Made by a program: the position numbers and the translations under genes
Notes under the pieces: generated by a model
The model's database searches: none
Seen by the model: the letters and a program-made list of their open reading frames with translations, nothing else
What the model was told of the DNA's origin: nothing
Source of the DNA: Kamptonema formosum PCC 6407
GTDB taxonomy: Bacteria > Cyanobacteriota > Cyanobacteriia > Cyanobacteriales > Microcoleaceae
Assembly (NCBI RefSeq): GCF_000332155.1
Contig: NZ_KB235903.1
Location: 715,156 to 779,155 of the forward strand
Length of the DNA: 64,000 bases
Direction of reading: 5' to 3'
Part shown: positions 8,152 to 38,077 of the stretch, one piece after another
Numbering within the stretch: the first letter of the stretch is position 1
Layout of the letters: each line of letters opens with the position of its first letter

Positions 8152-9060
<909 letters not shown>

Positions 9061-9252: not shown

Positions 9253-10737
9253 ATGACTCCTATCGAATCTACTACTATTGACCCTCAAGACTTAGCTGCG
9301 GAAGTTGTTGACAAAAAAGCCCTGATCAAAGAAGCTTTAGAACTCTATCCCGATAAAGCTAAGAAAAAACGGGAAAAGCACCTGAATGTCTACGAAGAAG
9401 GCAAATCAGATTGTGGCGTTAAGTCTAATATCAAATCCGTTCCCGGTTCCATGACCACACGCGGCTGCGCCTACGCTGGATCGAAAGGCGTAGTTTGGGG
9501 CCCAATCAAAGACATGATTCACATCAGTCATGGCCCCGTAGGTTGCGGTTATTATTCCTGGTCTGGTCGTCGCAACTACTATATCGGAACTACAGGCATT
9601 GATAGCTTTGGCACAATGCAATTTACATCCGATTTCCAAGAAAGAGATATCGTATTTGGTGGTGATAAAAAACTTGCCAAACTAATTACTGAACTAGACG
9701 AACTCTTCCCCTTAAATAGAGGCGTTTCGATTCAGTCTGAGTGTCCTATTGGTCTCATCGGAGACGATATCGAAGCTGTTGCCAAGAAAGCCAGCAAAGA
9801 AATCGGAAAAACCGTTGTACCTGTACGTTGTGAAGGCTTCCGGGGTGTCTCTCAATCCCTGGGACACCACATTGCAAACGACACTATCCGGGATTGGGTT
9901 TTTCCTCAAGCAGACAAGAAAAAGAAAGAACTGGGTCATGAAGGTACTCCCTACGATGTCGCAATTATTGGAGACTATAACATCGGTGGTGATGCTTGGT
10001 CTAGCCGCATTCTTCTCGAAGAAATTGGCTTGCGCGTAGTAGCTCAATGGTCGGGAGATGGCACGCTTCACGAAATGATGATGACCCCAACTGTGAAGCT
10101 AAATTTAGTTCACTGCTATCGCTCCATGAACTATATTAGCCGCCACATGGAAGAAGCTTATGGCATTCCTTGGTTGGAATATAACTTCTTTGGCCCAACT
10201 CAAATTGCTGCATCTCTGCGAGAAATTGCAGGTAAGTTTGACCAAAAAATCCAAGATAATGCTGAAAAAGTCATTGCTAAGTATGAAGCCCAAACTAAGG
10301 CCGTACTTGACAAATTCTACTCGCGCCTAGAAGGTAAGACTGTCGCTTTAATGGTTGGTGGTTTGCGTCCCCGCCACGTCGTTCCTGCCTTCCACGATTT
10401 AGGAATGAAACTAATCGGTACTGGTTACGAGTTTGGTCACAATGATGACTACAAACGCACGACTCATTACATTGAAGACGGCACCTTAATTTATGATGAC
10501 GTTTCTGCTTATGAGTTCGAGCATTTTGTCAAGGAACTCAAGCCAGATTTAATTGCTTCCGGCATCAAAGAGAAGTATGTTTTCCAGAAAATGGCGCTTC
10601 CCTTCCGCCAGATGCACTCTTGGGATTATTCTGGCCCTTATCACGGTTACGATGGTTTTGCTATCTTCGCCCGCGATATGGATTTAGCCCTTAATAGTCC
10701 AACTTGGGGATTAATTGGTGCTCCTTGGAAGAAGTAA
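9253..10737 (+). CDS. nifD: Nitrogenase MoFe protein alpha chain NifD (uninterrupted)
   Basis: 494 aa, contiguous. No excision element as found in Anabaena PCC 7120. Confidence 0.95.
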
Positions 10738-10897
10738 CCAAAACAGATTAGGGGAATACTACTAAGGATGAACGCTAAAAGTTTAAAATCCCCAAAACTA
10801 TCTCTCGATTTTCATCCTTAGTTCCTCCTAAATACAAGTTTTTTGTTATTTCCAACTCTCTACGCTACACTCCCTCATAAATATTGGAGATTGAGTC

Positions 10898-12436
10898 ATG
10901 CCTCAGAACAATATAGACAAAATTGACGACCACGTTACACTATTTCATCAGGAAGAATATCAACAGCTATTTGCTGGGAAAAAGGAATTTGAAGGCGGCC
11001 ACAGCCCAGAAGAAGTAACTCGAATTGCAGAATGGACAAAGACTTGGGAATATCGCGAGCAAAACTTTAGCCGCGAAGCTTTAACAGTTAATCCAGCTAA
11101 GGCTTGTCAGCCTCTAGGCGCAATTTTAGCAGCAGTAGGTTTTGAAGCTACCCTGCCCTTTGTTCACGGTTCTCAAGGTTGCGTTGCCTACTTCCGTTCT
11201 CACTTTACTCGTCACTTCAAAGAACCATTTTCAGCAGTGTCTTCTTCAATGACTGAAGATGCAGCGGTCTTTGGCGGACAGAATAATATGATTGATGGCT
11301 TGGCGACTTCTTATAATCTCTACAAGCCAAAGATGATTGCTGTCTGTACTACTTGTATGGCGGAAGTGATTGGGGATGACTTGCAAGCCTTTATTAATAA
11401 TGCCAAGGCTGCAGGTTCTGTTCCTCAAGAATATCCCGTTCCTTACGCTCATACACCTAGCTTTGTCGGCTCCCATATTACGGGTTACGACAATATGATG
11501 AAGGGAATTTTATCGAACCTAACAGCCGGTAAAAAAGCCGAAACGACTAACGGTAAGATTAACTTTATTCCCGGCTTTGAAACTTACATTGGTAACTTGC
11601 GCGAAGTCAAGAGAATTGGCTCTCTAATGGGCATAGACTATACGCTGCTGGCGGATAATTCTGAATATCTAGATTCACCAAATACTGGAGAATACAAAAT
11701 GTATCCCGGCGGTACGCCACTGGCAGAGGCAGCCGATTCCATTAATGCAGAAGCGACGATCGCTTTACAATCTTATTCAACCACTAAAACTCGCGATTAC
11801 ATTGATAGCGAGTGGAAGCAACCTACTTATGTCTGCCGTCCTGTAGGTATCCGGGGAACTGATGAATTCTTGATGAAATTATCGGCTCTGACAGGTAAAC
11901 CAATTCCTCAAGAATTGGAAGACGAACGGGGTCGGGCAGTAGACGCGCTAACGGATTCGCAATCATGGCTGCATGGCAAGCGGGTGGCAATGTATGGCGA
12001 TCCAGATTTGGTGATTGGATTAACCCAATTCCTGCTAGAAATTGGTGCTGAACCTGTGCATATCTTGGTAAGCAATAGCAACAATTTGTTTGAAAAAGAG
12101 TTGCAAGCAATTCTAGATGCTAGCCCCTTTGGTAAGGGTGCAACTATCTGGGGTGGTAAGGATTTGTGGCATCTACGTTCTCTCTTATTCACAGAACCCG
12201 TAGATCTATTAATCGGCAACTCCTACGGCAAGTATCTGTGGCGCGATACCAAAACTCCTTTAGTGCGAATTGGCTATCCTATCTTTGACCGCCACCACCT
12301 GCACCGCTATTCTACTTACGGTTATCAAGGTGCGATCAATTTGCTCAACTGGATTGTAAATACGCTACTTGACGAACTGGATCGCAATACCATTATCCCA
12401 GCGAAGACTGATATTTCCTACGACTTGATTCGATAA
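10898..12436 (+). CDS. nifK: Nitrogenase MoFe protein beta chain NifK
   Basis: 512 aa NifK. Confidence 0.95.
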
Positions 12437-12488
12437 ATAGGGTGGTGGGCATGGGAAGAGTTTTGAGTTAAAGAACTGAGTTAAAGAA

Positions 12489-12560
12489 CTAATTCTCCTT
12501 ACCTTCCCTGCCTCCCCTTGCCTTTCTCTGCCTCCCCCTGCCTCCCCTGTTCCTCCTCCT
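12489..12560. repeat. C-rich direct decamer repeats (CTGCCTCCCC x3-4)
   Basis: ccttccctgcctccccttgcctttctctgcctccccctgcctcccctgttcctcctcctcc. Confidence 0.6.
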
Positions 12561-12577
12561 CCCTATCTTCAAGTCCT

Positions 12578-12922
12578 ATGACTACTATCACCCACACGCA
12601 CGATAGCCACACGCACGATCGCCACCCTCACGACCATTACCTCGGCCCCAGAGAAAAGTCTGGTTTCGATCCTCTCTTCCTCCTGCGTCGATGGGTGGAT
12701 AGAGTTCCAGTAAGCGATCGCCAATTTGCCCATCTTATTTGCCAGGTAATTCCCTGTTGTTGTCCTTTTGAACGAGATGTTAATCTGTTCGGACACGCCT
12801 ATCACATTCCGCCTCTGTGCAAATTAAACCCTCTGTATGACGAGTTTGTTGGCTTACGCTTCCGCGCTCTTAGTTATCTAGCAGATGTTTGTTTAGAAGA
12901 CATCACAAAATACATCTGCTAA
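12578..12922 (+). CDS. Mo-dependent nitrogenase C-terminal domain family protein (Mo-nitro_C), between nifK and nifE
   Basis: His-rich N-terminus and Cys-rich core (CQVIPCCCPFERDVNLFGHAYHIPPLC). Position between nifK and nifE as in other cyanobacteria. The ORF track begins on TTG at 12518 inside the C-rich repeat; first ATG is at 12578. Confidence 0.65.
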   Translation: MTTITHTHDSHTHDRHPHDHYLGPREKSGFDPLFLLRRWVDRVPVSDRQFAHLICQVIPCCCPFERDVNLFGHAYHIPPLCKLNPLYDEFVGLRFRALSYLADVCLEDITKYIC

Positions 12923-14408: not shown

Positions 14409-14409
14409 A

Positions 14410-15708: not shown

Positions 15709-15786
15709 AAAGGTTAGATTAACTCCGCATCATTTGGCTTGGTTATGCTCTTTCTTCTCTTTCATTTTCTCATGAGGAGGCAAGCA

Positions 15787-16191: not shown

Positions 16192-16205
16192 AGGAGATTT
16201 ACCCA

Positions 16206-16664: not shown

Positions 16665-16675
16665 GGAGAACTGTC

Positions 16676-17548: not shown

Positions 17549-17658
17549 ATGTTCTCTGCATCTAATTTCTGAAGTTAATCTCTACTTCCTCAGAATTAAA
17601 ACTGGGTAAAATTTACCCGATTAGCTATTAACCCTTACCAAATCTCTTAGGAGTCTTT

Positions 17659-18030
17659 ATGACAGTTACATTAACAGAAGTGGCCGAATTGCGGCTTCGC
17701 GCCTTTCTACAAGGTTCTAGCAAAGCTGAAAATCAGGCACAACGGGGAGTTCGATTTTCCATTGTGGATGGAGGCTGTAGCGGTTATCAATATTCTTTGG
17801 ATATTATCAACGAACCAAAGCCAGATGATGTGCTGGAACAACAGGGGAAAATCCGAGTATATATTGACAAGGAAAGCGCACCTTTATTGGAAGGTGTTGT
17901 AGTTGATTACGTTGAAGGTTTAACTCAAAGTGGCTTTAAGTTTTTAAACCCTAATGCTACTGATACCTGCGGCTGCGGTCAATCTTTCCAAGCAGGAAAT
18001 TGTACTCCTACAGGTGTGCCTTGTAGCTAA
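17659..18030 (+). CDS. hesB: HesB/IscA-type A-type Fe-S carrier
   Basis: GGCSGYQYSL ... CGCGQSF motifs. Confidence 0.85.
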   Translation: MTVTLTEVAELRLRAFLQGSSKAENQAQRGVRFSIVDGGCSGYQYSLDIINEPKPDDVLEQQGKIRVYIDKESAPLLEGVVVDYVEGLTQSGFKFLNPNATDTCGCGQSFQAGNCTPTGVPCS

Positions 18031-18540: not shown

Positions 18541-18837
18541 ATGACGACATTAACCGGTTTGACTTTTGGCGGTACTACCTGGACACCCCAATTTGTGGAA
18601 GAAATTAACCAAGATAAATGTATTGGCTGTGGCAGATGTTTTAAAGCTTGTGGTCGCAATGTATTACAGCTAAGAGCCCTGAATGAAGATGGAGAATTTG
18701 TTGAAAATGAGGAAGAGGATGAGATTGAACGGAAAGTGATGAGTATTATTCATCCCGAATACTGTATTGGCTGTGAAGCTTGTTCGCGAGTTTGCCCCAA
18801 AAATTGTTACACTCACAGTTCGCTCGTCCAAGCTTAA
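18541..18837 (+). CDS. fdxB: nif-specific ferredoxin III-like 2[4Fe-4S] ferredoxin (FdxB-like)
   Basis: Two CxxCxxCxxxC(P) motifs ([23 protein letters not shown]) separated by a long spacer. N-terminal [14 protein letters not shown] is typical of FdxB. Confidence 0.7.
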
Positions 18838-18853
18838 ATCACTGCTAATACTG

Positions 18854-19495
18854 ATGGAAGAGGGAGAAAAAAGTCAAGTTTTTGACCGAGATTGGACTGC
18901 TTATTATCAAGCAGTTGCGGGTCGCTCTCCACGCCCAACTTTACTAACAGCTTTAGCCAGATTTGAAACAGAGCAATCTTTTAATTCAAATCCTTTTGCT
19001 ATAGACCTTGGTTGTGGGGATGGGCGAGATACGATAGAGTTGCTGAAACGCGGGTGGCGGGTATTAGCAATTGACGGTCAAGTAGATGCAATTACTCGTT
19101 TACGTAACCGTTTAGATGTTGATTTTAAACTTCTAGAAACCCGAGTTGAGCGTTTTGAATTAGTTACTCTACCGGATTCAGTAGATTTGGTTAATGCTAG
19201 TTTTTCTCTCCCTTTTTGCCCCCCGGCTAATTTCTCTGAACTGTGGGAAAAAATAGCCACTTGTTTGAGGGAAGGAGGGCGTTTTTCTGGACATTTCTTT
19301 GGTGAACGAGACTCATGGGCAGATCGTAGTTATATGACTCATGTTACTCGTAAACAATTGACAGATTTGCTACAAAATTGCTGGAAGATTGAGGTATTTG
19401 AGGAAGAAGAGCATTTAGGAACAACCCCTTTGGGGGAGGAGAGATACTGGCATATTTTTCATATTGTAGCACGTAAACATCTCGAAAAATTTTAG
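18854..19495 (+). CDS. Class I SAM-dependent methyltransferase
   Basis: DLGCGDGRDTIELLKRGWRVLAIDG motif I. The longer ORF from 18767 overlaps fdxB out of frame; the ATG at 18854 lies 16 bp after the fdxB stop. Confidence 0.7.
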   Translation: MEEGEKSQVFDRDWTAYYQAVAGRSPRPTLLTALARFETEQSFNSNPFAIDLGCGDGRDTIELLKRGWRVLAIDGQVDAITRLRNRLDVDFKLLETRVERFELVTLPDSVDLVNASFSLPFCPPANFSELWEKIATCLREGGRFSGHFFGERDSWADRSYMTHVTRKQLTDLLQNCWKIEVFEEEEHLGTTPLGEERYWHIFHIVARKHLEKF

Positions 19496-19502
19496 GTAAA
19501 TT

Positions 19503-19769
19503 ATGACAGCACAACGCGAAGAGCTTTACATGAATTTGATTGATAAACTGTTACATTGTCCCAATGGCAAAGAACCAGAGGTATTAGATAGTCATCAAGA
19601 TTTGATTGATGCTGGTTTAATACAAGCTATGGCAAAAGTAGCGGCATACTTTGCTCACCATGATAATCCAGACGCATCTAAGTTCTTAATTCATGTTGCC
19701 CGTGAATTGTCAAAACAGTTAGGATTATATACCGAACCTAATCAAGTTGCCCCCACTGAAAATATCTGA
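19503..19769 (+). CDS. Small hypothetical protein (88 aa) at the 3' edge of the nif cluster
   Basis: Begins 7 bp after the MTase stop. No recognisable motif; not NifW-like. Confidence 0.45.
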   Translation: MTAQREELYMNLIDKLLHCPNGKEPEVLDSHQDLIDAGLIQAMAKVAAYFAHHDNPDASKFLIHVARELSKQLGLYTEPNQVAPTENI

Positions 19770-19803
19770 ATATTTCCCGTGTTTTTAGACCGGGAATCTC
19801 AAA

Positions 19804-19860
19804 AATTTACACATAAACCAGAGTTGAAACACTTTTAGCAATCTGGTTTATGTGTAAATT
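19804..19860. terminator. 16-bp perfect inverted repeat hairpin (aatttacacataaacc ... ggtttatgtgtaaatt) between convergent genes
   Basis: Read directly. Likely a bidirectional terminator for the 88-aa ORF and mop. Confidence 0.45.
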
Positions 19861-19900
19861 ATAGGTATGTAAATTATAAGTATGTAAATTATACAGGACT

Positions 19901-20003
19901 TATGCACCTAACCAAAGAAACCGGGTTTTTTGACGAAAATACTTCGTTGTTACCCACCGATGATCTCAAAAACCCGGTTTCTGGAGCCATGAGCGTAAGT
20001 CCT
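19901..20003. repeat. Nested palindromic element: outer arms aggacttatgc/gcgtaagtcct enclosing two inverted copies of the GAAACCGGGTTT(C/T)T repeat
   Basis: Read directly. The same inner repeat pair recurs at 24882-24950. Confidence 0.5.
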
Positions 20004-20015
20004 ATTATATAGGTA

Positions 20016-20225
20016 TTAATCAACAGCAATAATTAAATCTGATGCCTTAATTACTGCGTAAGCTTCTTTGCCTTCTACTATTTCTAGATTGGCAGCAGAT
20101 GCTTTTGTGATAATGGCAACTACTTCAAGTTCAGGAGCAATTTCTAGCGTTACTTCAGCATTAACTGCTCCCACCAATACTTGTTTTACTTTAGCTTTGA
20201 GAACGTTACGAGCGCTAATTTTCAT
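20016..20225 (-). CDS. mop: Molybdopterin/molybdate-binding Mop (TOBE-domain) protein
   Basis: 69 aa starting MKISARNVLKAKV...; single Mop/TOBE domain. Confidence 0.8.
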   Translation of the reverse strand: MKISARNVLKAKVKQVLVGAVNAEVTLEIAPELEVVAIITKASAANLEIVEGKEAYAVIKASDLIIAVD

Positions 20226-20978
20226 TTTTCGAGCTTACCTGGTATTTTCATTAATATTGTATCACCCAAATCTATATTCCAATTGTAATTAAATTTACAT
20301 TTGAAGGTGTTGTTTCTACAAGTTGAGCCTGAAGTTTTTGTTTGTTTATAAATATTGTTTGCAATAACATTTATTTACTTCAAATAAATGCTTAATAAAT
20401 AACTTTAAAAACAGAGGCAGTAAAATTTAGTTGAATAATCCACATTAAATTGTCACAAATATTTTCCCGATTACTCCTACCTTGTATCGTTGCAATACTG
20501 CCATAATTAGTCAAACAGTCAAACACTAATCAAACAATTCATTATTGACTTGTTTAAAGCCATATTCACTCAACTTTATTAAGCTATAAAGTTGAGAAAC
20601 TACTACTTGAATCTTACTTTCCAGATTCGTCATAATATACCATTAGCATTTCATAAAAAATTTTTTCAGAGTTGAATTTTGAGAATCATCGACCATTGCT
20701 GTTATTGTGAGAACTAAGTAGATTAGCGGGAAAATACATTAAGTATGTCATTCCGAGTGAAACGTTGACGTAGCCTGCCCGTTAGGGCTTAGCAATCCCA
20801 ACGGCGAGGATAGCTTTACATTCTGTTACATACCAAGATTGCTCTGCACCTATCTACTTAACTAGAACCAAACTTACACATTAATGTGTCAAACTCAGAT
20901 CACCCGAACTCTTCTTAAAATGGGTTTAAGGAATATCTCTGGGTAAGTCCTACATCAAATACTTTGGAGAACAGAATT

Positions 20979-23384
20979 ATGACACCTGTAGAAGTTGAAA
21001 AAACACCAATGACTGAGCAAGAAGTAGAAAAGCTGTGGGAAGCATTTAAAATGTTTGATGCGGACGGTAGCGGTGCTATTTCAGCAGAAGAACTGGGTCA
21101 AGTGATGCGATCCTTGGGACAGAGCCCCAGCGAGACAGAACTGCGGGACATGATTAAAGAAGTAGATGTTGACCTGTCGGGAAGTATCGATTTTGAAGAA
21201 TTTAAAGCGTTAATTGTCTCCCAACAAGGCGATCGCACCAGCCGCCTAAAACTAGCATTCAGCGTCTTTGATGAGGACGGCAGCGGTCAAATCACCGTCA
21301 ACGAGCTGCGTAGTGTGATGAGTCAGTTTGGGCTGACAGATAAAGAACTTAATGAGATAGTACAAGAAGTCGATCATGATGGCGATGCCTCCATTGACTT
21401 TGAAGAGTTCTGTAAACTGGTGCCCGAAGAGTCCGAGATCGCTACAGGTTATCAAGACTCACCCATTCCCCCCACCACTTCACCTCAGCCAACTGCAACT
21501 GATGGGAGTACAACAGCCACCGAAAGCACACCCACGATCGCCAACGAGGTAGAACCCAGCACCACACCCACACCACAGGAAACACTCAGCGAAATAGATG
21601 CAGAGGTAGCAAGACTCACAGAACTACTCGCCAAACACCCACAGAACGAGACAAAGCGCGGTACATCGCGCTTACAGATGCAAATTGGTCTATTTCGCCT
21701 AATCCAGGGAGCCGCCTATCGCTGCTTCCGCGAGAGTTTCTCCGCCAACCACGAAACTCACCTGCGCGTCAGAAATCTACCCTACAGAATCACTGATTTC
21801 GTGCGGTTTGTGAAGACTGCGATCGCGCTTTACAAAGGATTAGGGATCGTCGAACCAGCTTGCAACCCCTTACTGGATGCAGTGGTAGAATCAATTACTA
21901 ATGAGTATGCTCGACTAGAAGACCGGATTAAGAATTGGAAAGCGATCGAAAAAACCCCAGAAATGTTGGCAGAACAAAAAGCCATGTTAGAGGCGCGGGG
22001 TAAATCTGCCACTGTCAAAGAAAAGTTTGCCGCCGGAGTTGAGTTTGCCATCACCATCAAGAAAAAACGTCTCAACTTGCGCGATGTTGCTGAAGGTGTA
22101 CTTGCCATCAATGAGCTCAACCGACTCAGGAAGATGGAACTCAATCAAGAGATTGCTCCAGAAGTAGAGCAATCAGCCGGAGATCCCAAAGATTACCTCA
22201 AAAAGTGGAACCGAGTCCTCCTCTCTGATGCCTCCGAACAAGTCGATGGTGCAATGATGCCAGTAGCTTATTGGTATGAGGAATTTATGCCAAAACTGTT
22301 GGCTGCTTTCAGCGTTAATACCGTCGCCGATATCCAAAGTAATACCGTTCCTGACGAAGCAGCTTTGGACAAGTGGTATCAATCTACTAAGGAGTCAGGA
22401 GAATTTAACGTTTATGGTGCCGATGTTGCAGACGGCTTTTCCAAATGCACTCCCCAACAAAAACTAATGCTTAAACAAGCTTGGCGACTCACTCACAACT
22501 ACTTAAATGGGGTGCAAAAACGGCGGGAACGTCAGGAATTTGGACGCGACTCTGGCGCACTTTCCCATTATGTATCATTCATTGATATATCCCTGGGCCG
22601 CAGCGATATTAAGGATGCTCAGATGCGCGTCAGTTTTCCATACTATATCGGGCCAGCGGTTTGGCGTTTCTTCCACACCAGTGCGGAAATTGTATCTACT
22701 AAAACGCCTGAGAAACAAAAAGCCTTGATAGCCGTTTTCAAGGAGTTTTTTCAACTGTTTGCCACGATGTATCCCTGTCCCTACTGTCGCCATCATCTCA
22801 ATGCCTATGTTGTGCAGAATAAGGAAGTGGAAATGTACCCTGTGGAGTACCTCGTACTCGGCCGCGACGTGAATCTTACTGACTTTAAGGTATCCCTAGA
22901 AGCAAAGCTTTCTACTGTGGTTGATGGCCCTTCTCTGCGCTTATTTTTCTGGAAGTTACACAACACTGTGTCTTCATCTATTGCTCGTTCGGAAGAGTGG
23001 TATCACAAGGATGAAAAAGCTTTTTACACTACTCGCTATTGGCCGAGTCTTGACTCGGAGTTAGCGCGTGCCAAAGCACTCAAACATATCAGCATTTCAA
23101 CCGATCGCATCTATGGTCTTTATGGGATGCTGAAGCCTGCATCGCGGCTTTCGGCTGTGAGAACTACATTGCAAAAGCTTTTGGAAAAAGGCGATATCGA
23201 AGGGATTAAGGCGGCCTGTACGATCGCAGAAGATTATATTAAGGATTTGGAGGAGGCTGCGATCGGCGGAAATTTCCTACAAGATACATATTACTTCGAT
23301 CCTGACCTGGTTGATAAAGCTCCACACTTTACTCCTGATGAAGAACAATTTGCCCGCAGTGGTGTGTTTGTGGAGGTTGTTTAA
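20979..23384 (+). CDS. Fusion protein: four EF-hand Ca-binding motifs, a Pro/Thr linker and a C-terminal Erv1/ALR-type sulfhydryl oxidase-like domain with CPYC motif
   Basis: EF loops DADGSGAISAEE, DVDLSGSIDFEE, DEDGSGQITVNE, DHDGDASIDFEE. C-terminal W..FHT....P......I..F..F...YPCPYC.HH ... FFWKLHNTV matches the Erv1/ALR consensus (W..LH..a..yP....F..l...YPC..C... W..LHN.VN). The track's TTG start is at 20964; first ATG is at 20979. Confidence 0.6.
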   Translation: MTPVEVEKTPMTEQEVEKLWEAFKMFDADGSGAISAEELGQVMRSLGQSPSETELRDMIKEVDVDLSGSIDFEEFKALIVSQQGDRTSRLKLAFSVFDEDGSGQITVNELRSVMSQFGLTDKELNEIVQEVDHDGDASIDFEEFCKLVPEESEIATGYQDSPIPPTTSPQPTATDGSTTATESTPTIANEVEPSTTPTPQETLSEIDAEVARLTELLAKHPQNETKRGTSRLQMQIGLFRLIQGAAYRCFRESFSANHETHLRVRNLPYRITDFVRFVKTAIALYKGLGIVEPACNPLLDAVVESITNEYARLEDRIKNWKAIEKTPEMLAEQKAMLEARGKSATVKEKFAAGVEFAITIKKKRLNLRDVAEGVLAINELNRLRKMELNQEIAPEVEQSAGDPKDYLKKWNRVLLSDASEQVDGAMMPVAYWYEEFMPKLLAAFSVNTVADIQSNTVPDEAALDKWYQSTKESGEFNVYGADVADGFSKCTPQQKLMLKQAWRLTHNYLNGVQKRRERQEFGRDSGALSHYVSFIDISLGRSDIKDAQMRVSFPYYIGPAVWRFFHTSAEIVSTKTPEKQKALIAVFKEFFQLFATMYPCPYCRHHLNAYVVQNKEVEMYPVEYLVLGRDVNLTDFKVSLEAKLSTVVDGPSLRLFFWKLHNTVSSSIARSEEWYHKDEKAFYTTRYWPSLDSELARAKALKHISISTDRIYGLYGMLKPASRLSAVRTTLQKLLEKGDIEGIKAACTIAEDYIKDLEEAAIGGNFLQDTYYFDPDLVDKAPHFTPDEEQFARSGVFVEVV

Positions 23385-23425
23385 CCCTCAGTAAATTCAA
23401 TCCTCAATAATTTACTCAAAGGTAT

Positions 23426-23457
23426 GTAGTTGCGCTTTAGCGCAGACAGCGCAACTA
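23426..23457 (+). terminator. 10-bp stem hairpin (tagttgcgct / agcgcaacta) 40 bp after the EF-hand/Erv gene
   Basis: Read directly. Confidence 0.45.
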
Positions 23458-23712
23458 TAGCTAGGGGCTAGGGGCTAGGGAAGAAGCGAAAGAAGGGAAA
23501 GAGAATAAAAGTAACAACTTCGTCGTCAACACTCAGCCGAACGGTTCGAGGATTTAGAATGCCCTAATGGTCTTGACGGTTGCTATAGCAACCTTCTTAG
23601 TAGTTAAGACCTTCTGAGTTCCACCAAACTAGCTGATTCTCTTCCCTTCTTCCCTAGCCTCTTCTTCCTTCTTCCCTAGCCCCTAGCCCCTAGCCTCTAG
23701 CCCCTCTTCCCC
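23458..23712. mobile_element. MITE-like element with ~30-bp terminal inverted repeats built from GGGGCTA heptamers; internal palindrome ggttgctatagcaacc
   Basis: Left end agctaggggctaggggctagggaagaag; right end cttcttccctagcccctagcccctagcc is its reverse complement. No ORF inside. Confidence 0.45.
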
Positions 23713-23793
23713 TGTCATAGTTCCCTGACATTTGACTTGCAACTCGAAGTCGTTATGAGTATGATTTAAAAAGAAGCAAAAAATAGAGCCGCA

Positions 23794-24054
23794 ATGAGGA
23801 TAGAAGAAATACCTATCAAACAGATTCGCCGCCCCCTGCCGCGAGTCAACGACCAAACCAAAGTAGCCGCGCTCATGGAATCCATCCGCGAGGTAGGATT
23901 AAAAGAGCCAATCGACGTGCTAGAAGTAGATGGCAAGTATTATGGCTTCTCAGGTTGCCACAGATATGAAGCTTGCGATCGCCTCGGCCTCGAAACCATC
24001 CGCTGCAAAGTCCGCCGAGCCCCCCGTTCCGTTTTGCAGATGCACCTAGCCTAA
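23794..24054 (+). CDS. srxA: Sulfiredoxin (ParB/Srx-fold)
   Basis: 86 aa with Srx active-site FSGCHRY and the PIDVLEVDGKYYGF pattern. Confidence 0.75.
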   Translation: MRIEEIPIKQIRRPLPRVNDQTKVAALMESIREVGLKEPIDVLEVDGKYYGFSGCHRYEACDRLGLETIRCKVRRAPRSVLQMHLA

Positions 24055-24150
24055 GAGGTTAGCTGAAGCCAGCTCATCCTTTTAGCAGATGCTTCTGTCA
24101 CCAGTTTTTTCTAAAATTTCTCTAATTACAATTAACTTGAGGCAAACATA

Positions 24151-24714
24151 ATGAGTAAGAACAACCACAAACAAGCTCTTTACCCAACTCGTATCGATCT
24201 GTCCGCAGAAACGCGCACTAAACTTGTTGGGATTCTTAACGACACTTTGGCAAACACCCTCGACTTAAAAACTCAAGTCAAGCAAGCCCACTGGAACGTC
24301 AAAGGCTTAGATTTTTACCAGTTACACTTGCTCTTTGACGAAATGGCAGGAGAATTAGAAGAGTACGTCGATATGTTTGCCGAAAGGATCACAGCTTTGG
24401 GCGGGTTGGCTTTGGGAACAGCCCGCATCGCCGCCGCAGAATCGAGCTTGCCAGAGTACCCCTTCGATATCCTTGATGGTAAATCCCATATTACCGCCTT
24501 AGCCGATCGCTATGCTCCCTATGGTAAGTTGTTGCGGGATGCGATCGATAAGACAGGAGAATGGGGCGATGCTGACACTGCTGACTTATACACCGAAGTC
24601 TCGCGGGCGATCGATAAGCGGCTGTGGTTCTTGGAAGCCCACCTGCAACCCTCAGAGATTGCTTCAGAAGATGAGGAAGTGGCTGGGAAAAAAGAAAAAG
24701 TCAAGCACAAGTAG
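24151..24714 (+). CDS. dps: Dps-family DNA-binding ferritin-like protein
   Basis: Dps ferroxidase-centre pattern (KQAHWNVKG...HLLFDE...E..D) and a Lys-rich C-terminal tail. Confidence 0.85.
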   Translation: MSKNNHKQALYPTRIDLSAETRTKLVGILNDTLANTLDLKTQVKQAHWNVKGLDFYQLHLLFDEMAGELEEYVDMFAERITALGGLALGTARIAAAESSLPEYPFDILDGKSHITALADRYAPYGKLLRDAIDKTGEWGDADTADLYTEVSRAIDKRLWFLEAHLQPSEIASEDEEVAGKKEKVKHK

Positions 24715-24789
24715 AATTGGTTAACGGTTAACTATTAACAGTTAACTGTTAACCGTTAGTTGTTTGCTTACTGAGTTAGACATTATAGA

Positions 24790-24847
24790 GTGGTGCGGAC
24801 ATCTTGCCCGCGATTCTCTAGGATAGCGGGCAAGATGCCCGCACCAC
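24790..24847. terminator. 22-bp stem palindrome (gtggtgcggacatcttgcccgc / gcgggcaagatgcccgcaccac) 75 bp downstream of dps
   Basis: Read directly. Confidence 0.5.
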
Positions 24848-24881
24848 AAACTACAGCACTTTCAAGGTAAGTGAGGTACAG

Positions 24882-24950
24882 AGAAACCGGGTTTCTTGAA
24901 TAAAACCGATTTCTGGCGATAAATAAGCGAAGAAACCCGGTTTCTGGGGT
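24882..24950. repeat. Second pair of inverted GAAACCGGGTTTCT repeats (same family as 19917-19990)
   Basis: gagaaaccgggtttcttg ... gaagaaacccggtttctgg. Confidence 0.5.
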
Positions 24951-25063
24951 GTACTTCATAAACCTGGAATCCGCTCTATATAATTCTGATGTACTCGGAA
25001 TTGACACTCTCAGGTCTAAAGACACTGAGATTCTTGAAGAGCCCAGATTATGAATAAAATTTT

Positions 25064-25796: not shown

Positions 25797-25950
25797 TAGA
25801 ATTATGGCTGTCTGACCAACCTTTAATCATCAAGCTTTTTGTGGATCGTCCTAAAAAAGGTTGTTATTAAGAATCCTCGCGTCTTTAGACTGGGGAGTGT
25901 CAAACTAAAGTAATCTGGCTACTGATAATCGGATATAGCACGTGGAAAAT

Positions 25951-26277
25951 ATGAGTCCTGTAGTTAAAATTATTCAACCCTCCGGCATTTTAGACGGTAC
26001 AAAGGCAAGTCAATTCCGCCAAGAGATTAGCGATCTAGTGGAATCTGGGGCAGATGTGGTATTAATAGACTTCCAAGATGTGACATTTATGGATAGTTCT
26101 GGCTTAGGCGCTTTAGTCCTGGCGCTGAAAACTGTACGCGCCGCCGGCAGCCAACTGGTAGTCTGTTCTATCAACGAGCAAATCAGAATCTTGTTTGAAC
26201 TCACTAGCATGGATCGAGTTTTCGAGATATTTCCCAGCCGCGACGCTTTTAATACCAAGATTCTCTCCAGCAGCTAA
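25951..26277 (+). CDS. STAS-domain anti-sigma-factor antagonist (SpoIIAA/RsbV-like)
   Basis: DFQDVTFMDSSGLGALV with the phosphorylatable Ser in DSSG context. Confidence 0.8.
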   Translation: MSPVVKIIQPSGILDGTKASQFRQEISDLVESGADVVLIDFQDVTFMDSSGLGALVLALKTVRAAGSQLVVCSINEQIRILFELTSMDRVFEIFPSRDAFNTKILSSS

Positions 26278-26333
26278 ACTTTTTAGGCGATCGCCGCTTG
26301 CAAATTTCTCCAAAATGTGCTAGAGGAGATAAG

Positions 26334-27467
26334 TTAGCCAAAGTTGACTTTGAGTAAAGACCAATCATCATCAAAAGCAGCTTTGGCGTTTAAATTTTGA
26401 ACGTAGTTAAAAACTCGGTCAAGATCGTCAGCATTTCTGTTGTGAGGAGTAGTAATTAGGTCAATAAAAGCATCAAGCCCCCAGATATTGCCATCAGGTT
26501 GATGAATCTCGTAAACCCCATCACTGAAGATATACAGCGTACTCAACTCATCTACATAGCAGGAATTATCGAGATATTCAGCATCTGGGAACATCCCAAC
26601 TGGCATTCCGGGAGTTTTTAGGCGTTTGGCTTTGGGGATACCTCCATCTGTGGATACCAAGACGGCGGGGGGATGGCCGGCACTGGCATATACTAGCTGG
26701 CGCTGAGGTCGGTTGTAAACACCGTACCACATTGTAAAATACTTGTCATTTTGATAACTCATCTGAAAAGTAGTATTGAGCGATCGCAGCACCTCGCTAG
26801 GTTGGTAGTAGTTAATATTGGGAATAGCTCGCGATCGCAGCAAATTTAGAACTGCCACAGAGGGAAGCGCCGCCCTCAAACCATGTCCAGCCACATCCAG
26901 CAAGTAAATCGCCAAATAATCAGAGTCCAGCCAAGTATAGTCAAAGCAATCTCCACCCAACTGCCTCGAAGGGATAAACTTCGCCTCCACGCTCACAGGT
27001 TCCGTCAAAGGATCTGGGAGTAGCGATCGCACATACTCAGCCGCCTCAGCTAACTCAGCCTCCAGTAACCCCTTAGCAATTTGTAAATCTCGGCTGAGCT
27101 GGTGTAGGCGCAGCCCCGCCCGCACTCTGGCTTGCAACTCATTGAGTTCAATCGGCTTAGAGATAAAATCATCCGCGCCAGCATCAAGACCCTTAACGCG
27201 ATCGGCTACCGATCCCAGCGAAGTCAACAAAAAGAATTGAGTAGTTGACAAATCTGGATTTGCCTTAACTCGGCGGCACACCTCTATTCCCGTCAGACGC
27301 GGCATAATCCAGTCGCAAATGATCAGAGCTGGGCGCAACTGTTGAGCCTGTGTAATACCGTCTTCGCCATTGCTCGCTACCGTAACCTCATAACCCTGTT
27401 TTTTCAGGGTTCTTCTCAGCAGCTCTTGAACGGCAGTATCGTCGTCAATAACCAGAATTTGAAACAT
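26334..27467 (-). CDS. Response-regulator receiver fused to PP2C/SpoIIE-type phosphatase (RsbU-like)
   Basis: N-terminal receiver (ILVIDDD...ICDWIMP). C-terminal GGDCFDYTWLDSDYLAIYLLDVAGHG PP2C motif. Confidence 0.8.
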   Translation of the reverse strand: MFQILVIDDDTAVQELLRRTLKKQGYEVTVASNGEDGITQAQQLRPALIICDWIMPRLTGIEVCRRVKANPDLSTTQFFLLTSLGSVADRVKGLDAGADDFISKPIELNELQARVRAGLRLHQLSRDLQIAKGLLEAELAEAAEYVRSLLPDPLTEPVSVEAKFIPSRQLGGDCFDYTWLDSDYLAIYLLDVAGHGLRAALPSVAVLNLLRSRAIPNINYYQPSEVLRSLNTTFQMSYQNDKYFTMWYGVYNRPQRQLVYASAGHPPAVLVSTDGGIPKAKRLKTPGMPVGMFPDAEYLDNSCYVDELSTLYIFSDGVYEIHQPDGNIWGLDAFIDLITTPHNRNADDLDRVFNYVQNLNAKAAFDDDWSLLKVNFG

Positions 27468-27657
27468 GGGGGCTCAGGTAGTACAAGTTTTTCAAGGTCT
27501 GGGGGTAGTCAATCAATAATCTTCACTCAGCACGCTTGCCACAATTGAGTATAGTCTAATAAGATAGCAGTCGAGCTAAATGCTAGGCGAGTCAACAGTC
27601 GCGCTCAATTTAGACTTAGACTTGATTTAAAATACGGCATAACTTTAGTGGCTTAGC

Positions 27658-28122
27658 GTGGTTGAATTAAAAAGTTCTGACAAGTCGCCAGTACCGGGGA
27701 AAGCCCACATTCAAGTCAATCCAGATCTGAAGGAATTAGACCCTGTTTTGTCTTGGTTTGCCCAATTGCATCAGCCGCCAATTCCCACCAGTATTTGGCT
27801 CAGGTGTCAATTAGCCCTAGCTGAGGGTTTTACCAATGCGGTTCGCTATGCCCACAAAGGCAAACCGGACATTCCTATTGACATTGAGGTAGCCCTGTTT
27901 CCCGAACGCTTAGAGATTAGAATCTGGGATTACGGCCCATCCTTTGATTTAGAACAGAAAATCAAGGAACTATCCGACGATCGAGTGGATACGTTTTCTG
28001 GTGGCGGCCGAGGCGTAAAATTGATGAAGGACATAGCCGATCGTCTGAGTTATACCGCTACTGCCGATAACCGGAACTGTCTATTAATCGTCAAAGGTTA
28101 TTCCCCCCAAATTGAAGCATGA
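27658..28122 (+). CDS. Anti-sigma factor / serine kinase (RsbW/SpoIIAB-like HATPase_c)
   Basis: ALAEGFTNAVRYAH ... GGGRGVKLMKDIADRLSY GHKL ATPase motifs. GTG start. Confidence 0.65.
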   Translation: MVELKSSDKSPVPGKAHIQVNPDLKELDPVLSWFAQLHQPPIPTSIWLRCQLALAEGFTNAVRYAHKGKPDIPIDIEVALFPERLEIRIWDYGPSFDLEQKIKELSDDRVDTFSGGGRGVKLMKDIADRLSYTATADNRNCLLIVKGYSPQIEA

Positions 28123-36217: not shown

Positions 36218-38077
36218 ATGAATCAATTAGAGTTCACGAAAGCATTTACAGCTTTGACACCAAGACAGCAAGAAGTGTTGTTAAAAGTTTTAGCTGGTGA
36301 AAAAGATGCAGATATTGCTGCTTCGTTACATATCACCAAAGAAACTGTGAGAAAACATATTGAAAATATTTGCGAAGCCTTTGGTTTGAGATATCAACAA
36401 GATCATGGCTTATCGCACCGCCCTAATTTAATTGCTCTATTTGCTAAATACAGACCGGAATTATTTAGCCGTTATCCTCAAAATAGCAGAAATAATACTC
36501 AAGTTTTGCTCAGCTACTACCGTAGTTTTGAACTAGATTTAGGTTTAATATCGCAGTTAGATGCGGCATTAAAAGCTAATGGGTGTAGAGTCTTTCAAGC
36601 TGGCAGTAATCTGCGAATGGCAAAAAACGGCCCACAGCAAATTTACGCAGAATTGAATCAAAGTGATTATTTATTGCTACTTTTATCGCCGCTTTCAGCT
36701 TGCAGCGAGATGGTGACAGAAGAGGTAAGGACTGCCAAAACTCTGCAAGGTTCGCGGGAGGGCAAACCTGTAATTATTCCGATTCGGATTAATTGCCCTT
36801 TTAGTTTACTAAACCATGATTTACGTGGCTATCTTCAGGGAATTAATGATTATGAGTGGTTGAAACCTGATGATACAGCAAAAATTGTCACGAGAATATT
36901 AGAAGTGATATTAGGCAGCAAAAGGCAAGAGGAAAAAGTAGTAGATAGCGGCTTAAATTCGTCTACAAATCAAGAGAAAGGAAGAAATTTAGAAACGCCA
37001 ACAGCTTTCCCGATAGTTTATGCTTTGACTCCAAATTACCCACCACAACCAATAGCAGAACCGGAGTTACCGAGAGGACAAGTCGAGTTAGCTTCTGCGT
37101 TTTATGTGGAAAGACAAGGAATTGAAGATCGTTGTTATGAGGCGATCGCGAAACCAGGTGCATTAATCCGCATCAAAGCGCCTCGCCAGATGGGAAAAAC
37201 TTCTCTAATGGCGAGAATTCTTCGCCGCGCCGAGTTGCAAGACTTTGCCGTAGTCCCTTTAAGCTTTCAGTTGGCAGATAGTAAAGTTTTTACCGATTTA
37301 GAACAGTTTTTGCGGTGGTTTTGTGCAAATGCTGCTTTGCAGCTAGATTTGCCGGATCGCTTAGCTGAATATTGGAATGGGATTTTTGGTGCTAAAGTAG
37401 CTTGTAAATCTTATTTTGAAAGATATTTGCTAGCAAATATTACAACTCCTTTAGCTTTAGGTTTAGATGAAGTAGATGTAGTGTTTAGATATCCTGAATT
37501 AGCCGCTGATTTTTTGGGATTGTTGCGTGCGTGGCACGAGGAAGCTAAAAATCGGGATATTTGGAAAAAATTGCGTTTAGTTGTCGTACACTCTACAGAG
37601 GTTTACGTGCCGATGGATGTCAATCAATCGCCATTTAATGTAGGTTTACCGATTGAGTTGCCGGAATTTAAACCGGAACAAGTGAAAGAATTAGCATTGC
37701 GGCATGGGTTGGCTTGGGGTGCAAAAGAAGTTGAGCAATTAATGGCAATGGTGGGAGGACATCCTTATCTGATTAGGTTGGCTTTCTATCACATTTCCCG
37801 ACAGGAAATAACTTTGTCAGAATTGTTAGCAACAGCACCGACTGATGCGGGACTTTATAGCGATCATTTGCGGCGGCATCTGTGGAATTTAGAACAGCAT
37901 CCAGACTTAGCAGCCGCTATAAAAAAGGTGGCAGATAGTGCTAGTCCAGTGCAACTAGAGTCAATGCAAGGTTTTAAGTTGCATAGTATGGGATTAGTGG
38001 AGTTTCAAGGTAATCAAGTAAGGCCCCGCTGCAATTTGTACCGCAATTATTTTAAGGTGCGTTTAGGAAATGAATAA
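36218..38077 (+). CDS. Three-domain protein: LuxR-type HTH, TIR-like domain, AAA_35 (STAND-like) ATPase
   Basis: LTPRQQEVLLKVLAGEKDADIAASLHITKETVRKHI (LuxR HTH). VLLSYYRSFELDLGLISQLDAALKANGCRVF...LLLLLSPLSACSEMVTEEV (TIR-like). IRIKAPRQMGKTSLMARI P-loop (AAA-like domain). Confidence 0.6.
   Translation: MNQLEFTKAFTALTPRQQEVLLKVLAGEKDADIAASLHITKETVRKHIENICEAFGLRYQQDHGLSHRPNLIALFAKYRPELFSRYPQNSRNNTQVLLSYYRSFELDLGLISQLDAALKANGCRVFQAGSNLRMAKNGPQQIYAELNQSDYLLLLLSPLSACSEMVTEEVRTAKTLQGSREGKPVIIPIRINCPFSLLNHDLRGYLQGINDYEWLKPDDTAKIVTRILEVILGSKRQEEKVVDSGLNSSTNQEKGRNLETPTAFPIVYALTPNYPPQPIAEPELPRGQVELASAFYVERQGIEDRCYEAIAKPGALIRIKAPRQMGKTSLMARILRRAELQDFAVVPLSFQLADSKVFTDLEQFLRWFCANAALQLDLPDRLAEYWNGIFGAKVACKSYFERYLLANITTPLALGLDEVDVVFRYPELAADFLGLLRAWHEEAKNRDIWKKLRLVVVHSTEVYVPMDVNQSPFNVGLPIELPEFKPEQVKELALRHGLAWGAKEVEQLMAMVGGHPYLIRLAFYHISRQEITLSELLATAPTDAGLYSDHLRRHLWNLEQHPDLAAAIKKVADSASPVQLESMQGFKLHSMGLVEFQGNQVRPRCNLYRNYFKVRLGNE

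What the first reader, a model, noticed from the sequence alone, without database searches (positions are those of the whole stretch)
20979..23384. Calmodulin-like 4xEF-hand fused to an Erv1/ALR-type sulfhydryl oxidase domain with a glutaredoxin-like CPYC motif, flanking the nif cluster
Four canonical 12-residue EF loops occupy residues ~30-150 (DADGSGAISAEE, DVDLSGSIDFEE, DEDGSGQITVNE, DHDGDASIDFEE). A Pro/Thr-rich linker and a ~350-aa helical region follow. Then comes a segment matching both halves of the Erv1/ALR FAD sulfhydryl-oxidase signature: W-RFFHT...YPCPYC-HH and later FFWKLHNTV. The redox pair is CPYC, the classic glutaredoxin active-site spacing, not the CxxC variants usual for Erv proteins. 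Erv1/ALR domains are mainly eukaryotic or viral. A Ca-sensor fusion in a cyanobacterium, directly between the nif cluster and sulfiredoxin/Dps genes, suggests Ca-regulated thiol oxidation possibly tied to heterocyst redox control.
Basis: partly seen in the sequence, partly recalled or inferred. Interest (0 to 1): 0.78.

Follow-up and report, generated by a model that had tools for sequence, protein, structure and literature searches.

The report
Calmodulin-fused Erv/QSOX-like thiol oxidase
A filamentous cyanobacterium encodes a strongly conserved, uncharacterised cytoplasmic protein that joins a true calmodulin-like calcium sensor to an Erv/QSOX-type flavin thiol-oxidase body, probably making disulfide (and perhaps peroxide) formation calcium-dependent; its position next to the nitrogen-fixation genes is accidental.

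Summary
Window 20979..23384 (+) encodes an 801-aa protein. It has four canonical EF-hands that are 48% identical to vertebrate calmodulin. A disordered Pro/Thr linker of about 55 aa follows, then a ~570-aa helical body containing an Erv1/ALR domain (Pfam PF04777, 41.1 bits against a cutoff of 27.6). CPYC aligns on the catalytic CxxC of Erv1, Erv2 and ALR.

Three things are new here:
- The whole body is one conserved unit. It also occurs, without canonical EF-hands, in marine Synechococcus and Rhizobium, and without an EF domain in eukaryotes (a choanoflagellate, a thraustochytrid). A giant-virus protein matches the whole module.
- CPYC is the only conserved cysteine pair.

The nif/sulfiredoxin/Dps adjacency is not conserved, even in 93–95%-identical Kamptonema genomes. 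The organism is non-heterocystous. There is no glutaredoxin fold.

The best explanation is a cytoplasmic, Ca2+-gated FAD sulfhydryl oxidase, analogous to NOX5 or CDPK. The domain combination is already auto-annotated in databases ('thiol oxidase', 'ERV1/ALR-related'), but I found no experimental study. I rate it a new variant of a known kind, of moderate to high interest.

The parts
20979..23384 (+). Complete CDS, 801 aa plus stop; a stand-alone gene
   Evidence: ORF list. Start supported by orthologue N-termini. Shared by 80 of 80 species loci with no conserved neighbour.
21009..21422 (+). Calmodulin-like domain, residues 11-148, two EF-hand pairs
   Evidence: Pfam EF-hand_7 1e-32. 48% identity to calmodulin, E 1e-47. 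Family profile aligns with calmodulin residues 4-144. Four helix-loop-helix units in the AF2 model.
21057..21092 (+). EF1 loop DADGSGAISAEE (residues 27-38)
   Evidence: D1, D3, S/N5, S9 and E12 invariant in 120-121 of 121 orthologues.
21165..21200 (+). EF2 loop DVDLSGSIDFEE (residues 63-74)
   Evidence: D1, D3, S5, G6, D9 and E12 in at least 119 of 121.
21270..21305 (+). EF3 loop DEDGSGQITVNE (residues 98-109)
   Evidence: D1, D/N3, S5, G6, T9 and E12 conserved.
21372..21407 (+). EF4 loop DHDGDASIDFEE (residues 132-143); the only loop that stays canonical in the divergent Synechococcus/Rhizobium homologues
21426..21593 (+). Pro/Thr/Ser/Glu-rich disordered linker (residues ~150-205), variable in length and sequence
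   Evidence: Composition. pLDDT about 30. Poorly aligned among orthologues.
21663..22238 (+). N-terminal sub-domain of the catalytic body (residues 229-420): small beta element plus long helical hairpin with a variable tip; fold and function unassigned
   Evidence: AF2 pLDDT 88-99 outside the tip. No PDB or Pfam match. Conserved in the bacterial, eukaryotic and viral homologues.
21660..21785 (+). Nearly invariant motif GTSxLQMQIGLFRLIQGAAYRxFRESFSANHETHLRxxxLPY (residues 228-269)
   Evidence: Invariant columns I236, R240, L241, Q243, G244, A245, A246, R248, F250, R251, A256, T260, H261, L262, L267, P268, Y269 in 38 sequences.
22251..22538 (+). Putative pseudo-Erv (HRR-like) helical domain, residues ~425-520, with conserved PVxYWYExFMPxLL and AWRLTxxYLNG motifs
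22632..23078 (+). Erv1/ALR-type domain (residues ~552-700), the putative FAD-binding helical bundle
   Evidence: PF04777 41.1 bits against GA 27.6. Erv2, Erv1, ALR, R596 and pB119L are the only PDB sequence hits. pLDDT mostly 83-98.
22662..22679 (+). Helix-1 motif WRFFHT (W562, H566 invariant)
   Evidence: Aligns with W..(F/L)H of Erv2, Erv1 and ALR. Invariant.
22776..22787 (+). CPYC (C600, C603): putative redox-active disulfide and the only conserved cysteine pair
   Evidence: Aligns on the catalytic CxxC of Erv2, Erv1 and ALR. C600 in 44 of 45 and C603 in 43 of 45 sequences; other Cys not conserved.
22812..22928 (+). Family-specific ~40-aa insertion between Erv helices 2 and 3 (residues 612-650), with invariant E616, Y620, P621, E623, L627, G628, L644
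   Evidence: It breaks the Pfam and PDB alignments at this point. Invariant columns. Structured in the model.
22950..22970 (+). Helix-3 motif WKLHNTV (W658, K659, H661, N662, V664 invariant)
   Evidence: Sub-threshold alignment to HVHNTVN of plant Erv1. Invariant. Used as a search pattern.
23079..23381 (+). C-terminal helical extension (residues 701-801) ending in the conserved FLQxTYxFDPxLxxxxPHFTPEEExFARSGxFVE tail
   Evidence: Long helices 708-737 and 740-764. Y771 and R793 invariant.

Best explanation
The gene encodes a soluble cytoplasmic flavoenzyme. Its ~570-aa body is built like the catalytic half of QSOX: a degenerate pseudo-Erv domain packed against a true Erv1/ALR domain. That Erv domain would bind FAD next to the C600-P-Y-C603 disulfide. 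Thiols of a substrate would reduce that disulfide, and the electrons would pass to FAD and then to O2 (giving H2O2) or to another acceptor.

Instead of QSOX's thioredoxin domains, the N-terminus carries a bona fide four-site calmodulin domain on a flexible ~55-residue tether. On a rise in Ca2+, this domain would clamp a target helix, either in cis on the body (relieving autoinhibition or opening access to the CxxC) or in trans on a partner or substrate. Disulfide and oxidant production would then follow the cellular Ca2+ signal, in the manner of NOX5/DUOX/RBOH or of CDPKs with their fused calmodulin-like domain.

Shown here: the domain identities, the catalytic-motif conservation, the tethered architecture, the absence of export signals, and the stand-alone gene status.

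Inferred: FAD binding, oxidase activity, Ca2+ dependence, the substrate and the electron acceptor.
For: Erv identity
- PF04777 scores above its gathering cutoff.
- Only Erv-family structures are hit by sequence or by profile.

Catalytic competence
- W562, H566, Y598, P599, C600, C603, W658, K659, H661, N662, R686 and W688 are invariant or nearly so across bacterial, eukaryote-like and virus-like homologues.

Ca sensor
- Four canonical loops, invariant at the liganding positions in 121 orthologues.
- 48% identity to calmodulin.

Tether
- pLDDT is about 30 over residues 152-205, and pTM falls from 0.87 (body alone) to 0.69 (full length).

Cytoplasmic location
- There is no hydrophobic segment (maximum KD19 is 1.2), and the N-terminus runs directly into EF1.

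Selection
- 73-82% identity over 800 aa across Nostocales and Oscillatoriales-type genera.
Against: No biochemical data exist for any member.

Only one cysteine pair is conserved. There is thus no shuttle disulfide or Trx module of the kind most Erv/QSOX enzymes use to reach protein substrates, which leaves substrate access unexplained.

The AF2 model gives no confident docking site for the EF domain. Contact maps were not available.

The divergent Synechococcus/Rhizobium homologues have degenerate EF1 and EF2 loops, and the eukaryote-like ones have no EF domain at all. The body therefore clearly functions without a four-site Ca sensor.

A thiol oxidase in the reducing cytoplasm is unusual outside viruses.

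Confidence: 0.55

Rival explanations
1. The enzyme is a constitutive thiol oxidase, and the EF-hand domain is not a Ca2+ switch. Instead it acts as a structural, dimerisation or substrate-docking module, or as a Ca2+ buffer in the way proposed for CSE. Activity would then be independent of Ca2+.
For: Homologues in Synechococcus and Rhizobium keep the N-domain at the same length but have lost the acidic ligands of EF1 and EF2. Eukaryote-like homologues lack the domain altogether. No docking is predicted. The CSE paper argues for a buffer role for another cyanobacterial EF-hand protein (PMC13578307).
Against: In the filamentous-cyanobacterial clade all four loops are invariant at every liganding position in 121 orthologues. 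The domain is 48% identical to calmodulin, including the target-binding helices. That is the signature of a maintained Ca2+-dependent conformational sensor, not of a decaying scaffold.
Confidence: 0.2
2. The Erv-like body is not a sulfhydryl oxidase. It would be a redox or flavin sensor, or a scaffold, that signals through the conserved N-terminal sub-domain (motif GTSxLQxQIGxFRLxQGAAYRxFR...). The CxxC would act as a thiol switch that reports oxidative state and integrates it with Ca2+.
For: About 200 residues of the body (229-420) are as conserved as the Erv part, yet match no known fold or family. No shuttle cysteines are present. Several homologues lacked the [YFW]PCxxC pattern (for example P0156, P0161, P0163, P0166, P0174), although the alignment shows variant motifs such as YACPYC or LACPYC in most of them and a broken one (YPCLYR) in P0166.
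Against: All positions that characterise catalytically active Erv enzymes are invariant or nearly so. Every characterised member of PF04777 is an FAD sulfhydryl oxidase (my own knowledge).
Confidence: 0.15
3. This is the first reader's model: the protein is a Ca-regulated thiol oxidase dedicated to nitrogenase or heterocyst redox control, working together with the adjacent nif, sulfiredoxin and Dps genes.
For: In this window the gene lies between the nif cluster (nifB to hesB at 4061-18030, mop at 20016-20225) and the srx and dps genes (23794-24714).
Against: The adjacency is unique to this genome. Synteny with 93-95%-identical Kamptonema genomes ends at the gene borders. None of 15 neighbours is found in any of 80 species loci, and no neighbour is conserved. 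The gene is separated from mop by a ~750-bp spacer, and mop is on the opposite strand. The host is non-heterocystous. Homologues occur in marine Synechococcus, Rhizobium, eukaryotes and a giant virus.
Confidence: 0.04

Closest known systems
QSOX (quiescin sulfhydryl oxidase) catalytic half: HRR/pseudo-Erv + Erv (PDB 3lli, 4p2l, 3qd9)
   Different: - No thioredoxin domains and no second or third CxxC.
- Cytoplasmic rather than secreted, with no signal peptide.
- An extra ~200-aa N-terminal sub-domain, a ~40-aa insertion inside the Erv domain and a ~100-aa C-terminal extension.
- An N-terminal calmodulin domain.
- Sequence identity is only 13-14%.
Single-domain Erv1/ALR/Erv2 and viral Erv oxidases (yeast Erv1 4e0h, AtErv1 2hj3, ALR 1oqc, Erv2 1jr8, mimivirus R596 3gwn, ASFV pB119L 3gwl)
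   Same: The helix 1 and helix 2 signatures G..W..(F/L)H...YPCxxC..H align directly, and these are the only sequence-level PDB hits. The helix-3 W..HN.V motif is present.
   Different: Those enzymes are homodimers of ~100-190-aa subunits and usually carry a shuttle disulfide on a flexible arm. Here the partner is an in-chain pseudo-domain, no shuttle pair is conserved, and the core is interrupted by a conserved insertion, so Pfam covers only positions 2-57 of 93.
EF-hand-regulated oxidant-generating flavoenzymes (NOX5/DUOX/plant RBOH) and CDPKs with a fused calmodulin-like domain
   Same: The logic is the same: a calmodulin-type four-EF-hand module is covalently tethered to a catalytic domain, so that Ca2+ switches a redox (NOX5) or catalytic (CDPK) output. 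This is an analogy from my own knowledge and was not tested here.
   Different: The catalytic folds are unrelated. NOX5 is a membrane haem/FAD/NADPH enzyme and CDPK is a kinase. No junction or autoinhibitory helix has been identified here.
CSE, the Ca2+ sensor EF-hand protein of filamentous cyanobacteria (PMC13578307)
   Same: It is a cytoplasmic EF-hand protein characteristic of filamentous cyanobacteria, which shows that these organisms use EF-hand Ca2+ signalling.
   Different: CSE is a small stand-alone EF-hand protein with no enzymatic domain. The paper does not mention Erv or thiol oxidase.

Membership tests
Erv1/ALR sulfhydryl oxidase family (Pfam PF04777) | Sequence match to the family model above the curated threshold | tested here: met
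   41.1 bits against a gathering score of 27.6, E 2.4e-10, though only profile positions 2-57 of 93. Homologues P0143, P0147, P0155 and P0158 also pass.
Erv1/ALR sulfhydryl oxidase family (Pfam PF04777) | Redox-active CxxC at the end of helix 2 in the YPCxxC context | tested here: met
   YPCPYC aligns column for column with YPCGEC (Erv2), YPCREC (AtErv1), YPCNWC (Erv1) and YPCEEC (ALR). Conserved in 43-44 of 45 homologues.
Erv1/ALR sulfhydryl oxidase family (Pfam PF04777) | Flavin-contacting signature residues: W-x3-H in helix 1, H-N in helix 3, and a basic/aromatic pair in the last helix | tested here: met
   W562, H566, W658, H661, N662, R686 and W688 are invariant. The equivalence of helices 1 and 2 is shown by alignment. 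Helix 3 is aligned only sub-threshold. The assignment of the last helix rests on my own knowledge.
Erv1/ALR sulfhydryl oxidase family (Pfam PF04777) | Four-helix bundle (plus a fifth helix) fold | tested here: met
Erv1/ALR sulfhydryl oxidase family (Pfam PF04777) | Bound FAD and thiol:O2 (or cytochrome c) oxidoreductase activity | not testable with these tools
   Requires purified protein.
QSOX family | Pseudo-Erv (HRR) domain immediately upstream of the Erv domain in one chain | tested here: inconclusive
QSOX family | N-terminal PDI-like thioredoxin domain(s) with a CxxC that shuttles electrons to the Erv domain | tested here: not met
   No thioredoxin-fold family is hit. No second conserved cysteine pair exists. 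The protein is therefore not a QSOX; it only shares the architecture of QSOX's catalytic half.
Calmodulin / calmodulin-like four-EF-hand proteins | Two pairs of canonical 12-residue EF loops with acidic ligands at positions 1, 3, 5 and 12, in helix-loop-helix units | tested here: met
Calmodulin / calmodulin-like four-EF-hand proteins | Ca2+ binding with a conformational change that exposes target-binding surfaces | not testable with these tools
   Needs ITC, NMR or a hydrophobic-dye assay.
Glutaredoxin (CPYC active site) | Thioredoxin fold carrying CPYC at the N-terminus of helix 1, with a glutathione-binding site | tested here: not met
   No Glutaredoxin or Thioredoxin Pfam hit. CPYC lies inside the all-helical Erv domain.

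The most novel reading that the evidence does not exclude
The ~570-aa body (unknown sub-domain + pseudo-Erv + Erv with insertion + C-terminal helices) defines a distinct, ancient class of cytosolic thiol oxidases that has never been studied. It is shared by cyanobacteria, some alphaproteobacteria, diverse protists (where many members look N-myristoylated) and giant viruses.

In filamentous cyanobacteria it has been coupled to an authentic calmodulin. That would create a bacterial Ca2+-to-disulfide/H2O2 signalling enzyme, a soluble functional counterpart of NOX5/RBOH. The nearly invariant N-terminal motif would be its substrate site or its calmodulin-target site. In eukaryotes the same site might be served by free calmodulin in trans.
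Probability: 0.3. Interest if true: 0.8.

Novelty: new variant of a known kind. Interest (0 to 1): 0.6.

Why it matters
Erv/QSOX oxidases are textbook enzymes of eukaryotic compartments and of cytoplasmic DNA viruses. Bacteria are thought to make disulfides with DsbA/DsbB or VKOR in the periplasm.

Here a cytoplasmic Erv-type oxidase is held at 75-80% identity across filamentous cyanobacteria and is wired to a real calmodulin. If it is active, that would give:
- a direct molecular link between Ca2+ transients and thiol redox or peroxide signalling in multicellular cyanobacteria;
- a bacterial example of a fused-calmodulin enzyme;
- an entry point to an uncharacterised protein class that is also present in protists and giant viruses.

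It is directly testable, because orthologues exist in tractable strains such as Nostoc punctiforme ATCC 29133 (ACC81453.1 / B2IWJ9).

Tried and rejected
- Foldseek of the 602-aa model against the PDB gave no hit with E <= 0.001. It is uninformative for this long helical multi-domain query.
- The afdb50 library was not available.
- A PDB search with the full-family profile A1 was swamped by calmodulin. I repeated it with the trimmed profile A2.
- hhalign of the pseudo-Erv half against the Erv half found no similarity.
- Residues 225-420 against the PDB gave only a spurious line.
- NCBIfam gave only a sub-threshold XopAW hit (75 bits against a cutoff of 120), driven by the EF-hands, and nothing for the body.
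- PADLOC gave no defence-family hit.
- Rfam found nothing in 19500-25000.
- The promoter/terminator scan was not above shuffled expectation.
- The full-length AF2 model could not show EF-domain docking: pTM was 0.69 and no contact output is given.
- Seven completed literature searches, including searches by accession, found no study of this protein. One further query failed on syntax.
- A link to nif, srx and dps was considered and rejected. The 'histidine kinase' name carried by some database entries was also rejected: no HisKA or HATPase domain is present.
Full report
**What is there.** Window 20979..23384 (+) is an intact 801-aa ORF. A TTG five codons upstream is possible, but all orthologues begin MT(S/P)V..., which fixes the ATG.

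The N-terminal domain is a calmodulin-like Ca sensor:
- Pfam finds four EF-hands in residues ~17-150 (EF-hand_7 at 1e-32; EF-hand_1 in four stretches).
- The loops lie at residues 27-38, 63-74, 98-109 and 132-143.
- Residues 11-148 are 48% identical to vertebrate calmodulin (72% positives, E 1e-47).
- In 121 orthologues, loop positions 1, 3, 5, 9 and 12 are essentially invariant in all four loops.

After this domain comes a 55-residue T/P/E/S-rich segment. It is predicted disordered (pLDDT about 30) and is poorly conserved.

**The Erv claim.** The Erv1/ALR assignment is well supported:
- PF04777 scores 41.1 bits against a gathering cutoff of 27.6 (E 2.4e-10) over residues 560-617.
- phmmer of the C-terminal 301 residues against all PDB sequences returns Erv2, yeast and plant Erv1 and ALR (12 of its 17 lines). 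The five weak unrelated lines (E 0.67 to 1.4) are noise. G..W..FH and YPCPYC..H align on G..W..(F/L)H and YPCxxC..H.
- A profile of 17 diverse family members improves this to E 4e-6. It adds mimivirus R596 and ASFV pB119L, and gives a sub-threshold second segment pairing KLHNaVsss with HVHNTVN of plant Erv1.
- Pfam matches only profile positions 2-57 of 93 because a conserved ~40-residue insertion (612-650; invariant E616, Y620, P621, E623, L627, G628, L644) separates helix 2 from helix 3.
- Among 45 homologues, C600 and C603 are the only conserved cysteines, present in 44 and 43 of 45.

The CPYC dipeptide is a family constant. However, the CxxC dipeptide differs in every Erv structure aligned here, and no thioredoxin-fold family is hit. 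The 'glutaredoxin-like' reading is therefore a coincidence of four letters.

**Architecture of the body.**
- An AlphaFold2 model of residues 200-801, built on a 45-sequence alignment, is confident (pLDDT 86.8, pTM 0.87).
- An Erv domain is only about 110-130 residues. About 220 aligned residues therefore imply that residues ~425-520 form a pseudo-Erv (HRR-like) domain packed on the true Erv domain, as in QSOX.
- That inference rests on aligned length only. I could not see the residue alignment, the two halves share no profile similarity, and Foldseek found nothing.
- Upstream lies a further ~200-residue sub-domain (229-420). It opens with a nearly invariant motif, GTSxLQMQIGLFRLIQGAAYRxFRESFSANHETHLRxxxLPY. 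It matches nothing in the PDB or Pfam.
- A ~100-residue helical C-terminal extension with a conserved tail completes the protein.
- There is no hydrophobic segment (maximum KD19 is 1.2) and no signal peptide, so the protein is cytoplasmic.
- In the full-length model the EF domain folds canonically, but pTM drops to 0.69. That gives no evidence for a fixed docking position.

**Relatives.**
- The protein is the orthologue of a very conserved family (73-82% identity, 785-808 aa). It occurs in Kamptonema, Microcoleus, Tychonema, Lyngbya, Microseira and many Nostocales, including Nostoc punctiforme ATCC 29133 (ACC81453.1 / B2IWJ9).
- 256 of 185,579 species-representative genomes encode a relative.
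- An exhaustive search with residues 200-801 finds 242 clusters at 50% identity.
- Versions of about 750-785 aa occur in marine Synechococcus (KORDI-100), other Synechococcales and Rhizobium spp., and NCBI names them 'ERV1/ALR-related protein'. Their N-domain is homologous and of equal length, but EF1 and EF2 have lost their ligands and only EF4 stays canonical.
- Versions of about 620-670 aa have no EF domain and start with MGxxxS/T-type N-termini. They include proteins of the choanoflagellate Didymoeca costata and the thraustochytrid Hondaea fermentalgiana.
- Long Asn-rich versions of 885-1484 aa also exist.
- A 1140-aa Yasminevirus (Klosneuvirinae) protein matches the whole module (Foldseek E 2.7e-20, probability 1.00).
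- Most of these keep YPC(P)xC, and nearly all keep WK(L/F)HNxV.
- The patchy bacterial distribution, the eukaryote/virus-typical Erv fold and the calmodulin-like N-domain suggest transfer from eukaryotes or viruses into bacteria. I did not test the direction.

**Genomic context.**
- The window does hold nifB, S, U, H, D, K, E, N and X, DUF269, hesA and hesB upstream. A methyltransferase and a Mop/TOBE gene on the minus strand follow, and then the target gene.
- Downstream come a ParB_N/sulfiredoxin-like gene, Dps and a partner-switching module.
- This arrangement is not conserved. DNA homology to the two closest genomes (L006 at 95% and L007 at 93% nt identity) spans only window 20859..23461.
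- None of 15 window neighbours is detectable next to the gene in any of 80 species. De novo clustering of flanking ORFs finds only the gene itself in all loci.
- In Oscillatoria nigro-viridis PCC 7112 and in Kamptonema UHCC 0994 the neighbours are unrelated. In the latter they are a contractile-tail sheath and tube, a kinase-WD40 gene, a Na+/Ca2+ exchanger and an Eco57I-type methylase.
- The gene is thus a stand-alone unit. Its adjacency to nif, srx and dps carries no functional information.
- The source organism is a non-heterocystous filament.

**Mechanism.**
- The best-supported reading is a cytoplasmic FAD-dependent sulfhydryl oxidase of QSOX-like pseudo-dimer design. Its access or activity would be gated by a tethered calmodulin domain in response to Ca2+.
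- The closest analogies are NOX5/DUOX/RBOH and the fused calmodulin-like domain of CDPKs. These come from my own knowledge and were not tested.
- Open points: how substrates reach the single CxxC without a shuttle disulfide or Trx module; what the invariant N-terminal sub-domain does; and what the EF domain binds.
- Rivals: a Ca2+-independent role for the EF domain, a non-catalytic redox-sensor role for the body, and the nif/heterocyst model. The last is essentially refuted by the comparative context.

**Novelty.**
- Databases already label members 'EF-hand domain-containing protein', 'thiol oxidase' (UniRef), 'ERV1/ALR-related protein' or, wrongly, 'histidine kinase'.
- One paper notes in passing that PF04777 occurs in Nostocales and Oscillatoriophycideae (PMC10598087).
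- Seven completed literature searches, including searches by accession, found no study of the protein. The 2026 CSE paper on cyanobacterial EF-hand signalling does not mention it.
- It is therefore not a new detection. It is an uncharacterised, architecturally distinct variant of the Erv/QSOX oxidases.

Noticed in passing
window 20859..23461, compared with L006 and L007: Synteny with the closest Kamptonema genomes (93-95% nt identity) begins about 35-120 bp upstream of the ATG (20944 in L007, 20859 in L006). It ends between the stop codon (23387 in L006) and about 77 bp past it (23461 in L007). The gene sits as an isolated conserved block in different neighbourhoods in each genome, and no repeat or mobile-element signature was looked for at the junctions.
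   Followed up: partly
L007 981..5089 and 10401..11522: In Kamptonema sp. UHCC 0994 the orthologue is flanked by phage-tail sheath and tube genes, which suggest a contractile injection system or a prophage remnant. A Na+/Ca2+ exchanger gene lies 2.6 kb downstream. No such exchanger appeared among the widely shared flanking-ORF clusters, though I did not test for it directly.
   Followed up: partly
window 21830..22144 (-): A 104-aa antisense ORF inside the gene is 'conserved' in 67 of 80 loci. This is a shadow of the strong conservation of the sense frame, not evidence of a gene.
   Followed up: yes
window 36218..38077 (+): A 619-aa protein combines a GerE/LuxR HTH, a TIR_2 domain and an AAA_35 (AAA-like) domain. 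This is a TIR-STAND-like architecture reminiscent of defence or signalling NTPases.
   Followed up: no
window 25942..28122: A partner-switching module lies just downstream of dps: a STAS anti-sigma antagonist (25942-26277), a response-regulator-SpoIIE phosphatase (26334-27467, minus strand) and an HATPase_c_2 anti-sigma kinase (27658-28122).
   Followed up: no
L005 (metagenome contig carrying P0158): The EF-less 618-aa homologue sits in a densely packed contig with Hikeshi-like, Ariadne/RBR E3, NEL E3 and Sel1-repeat genes. That is a eukaryote-like gene set without obvious introns, so the contig may come from a giant virus or an intracellular symbiont.
   Followed up: no
database names of P0059, P0069, P0071, P0091, P0114, P0118 and Yasminevirus A0A5K0UAY3: Several orthologues, and the giant-virus homologue, are annotated 'histidine kinase' although no HisKA or HATPase domain is present. 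This looks like a propagated misannotation.
   Followed up: partly
P0418, P0420, P0422: Some members closest to the choanoflagellate protein (40-43% identity, 680-766 aa, source unknown) do carry EF-hand Pfam domains. The EF-Erv fusion may therefore not be confined to bacteria.
   Followed up: no
window 12518..12922 (+) and 18767..19769 (+): A Mo-nitro_C family ORF lies between nifK and nifE. A SAM-methyltransferase plus an 88-aa ORF with no family hit lie between hesB and mop, at the distal end of the nif cluster.
   Followed up: no
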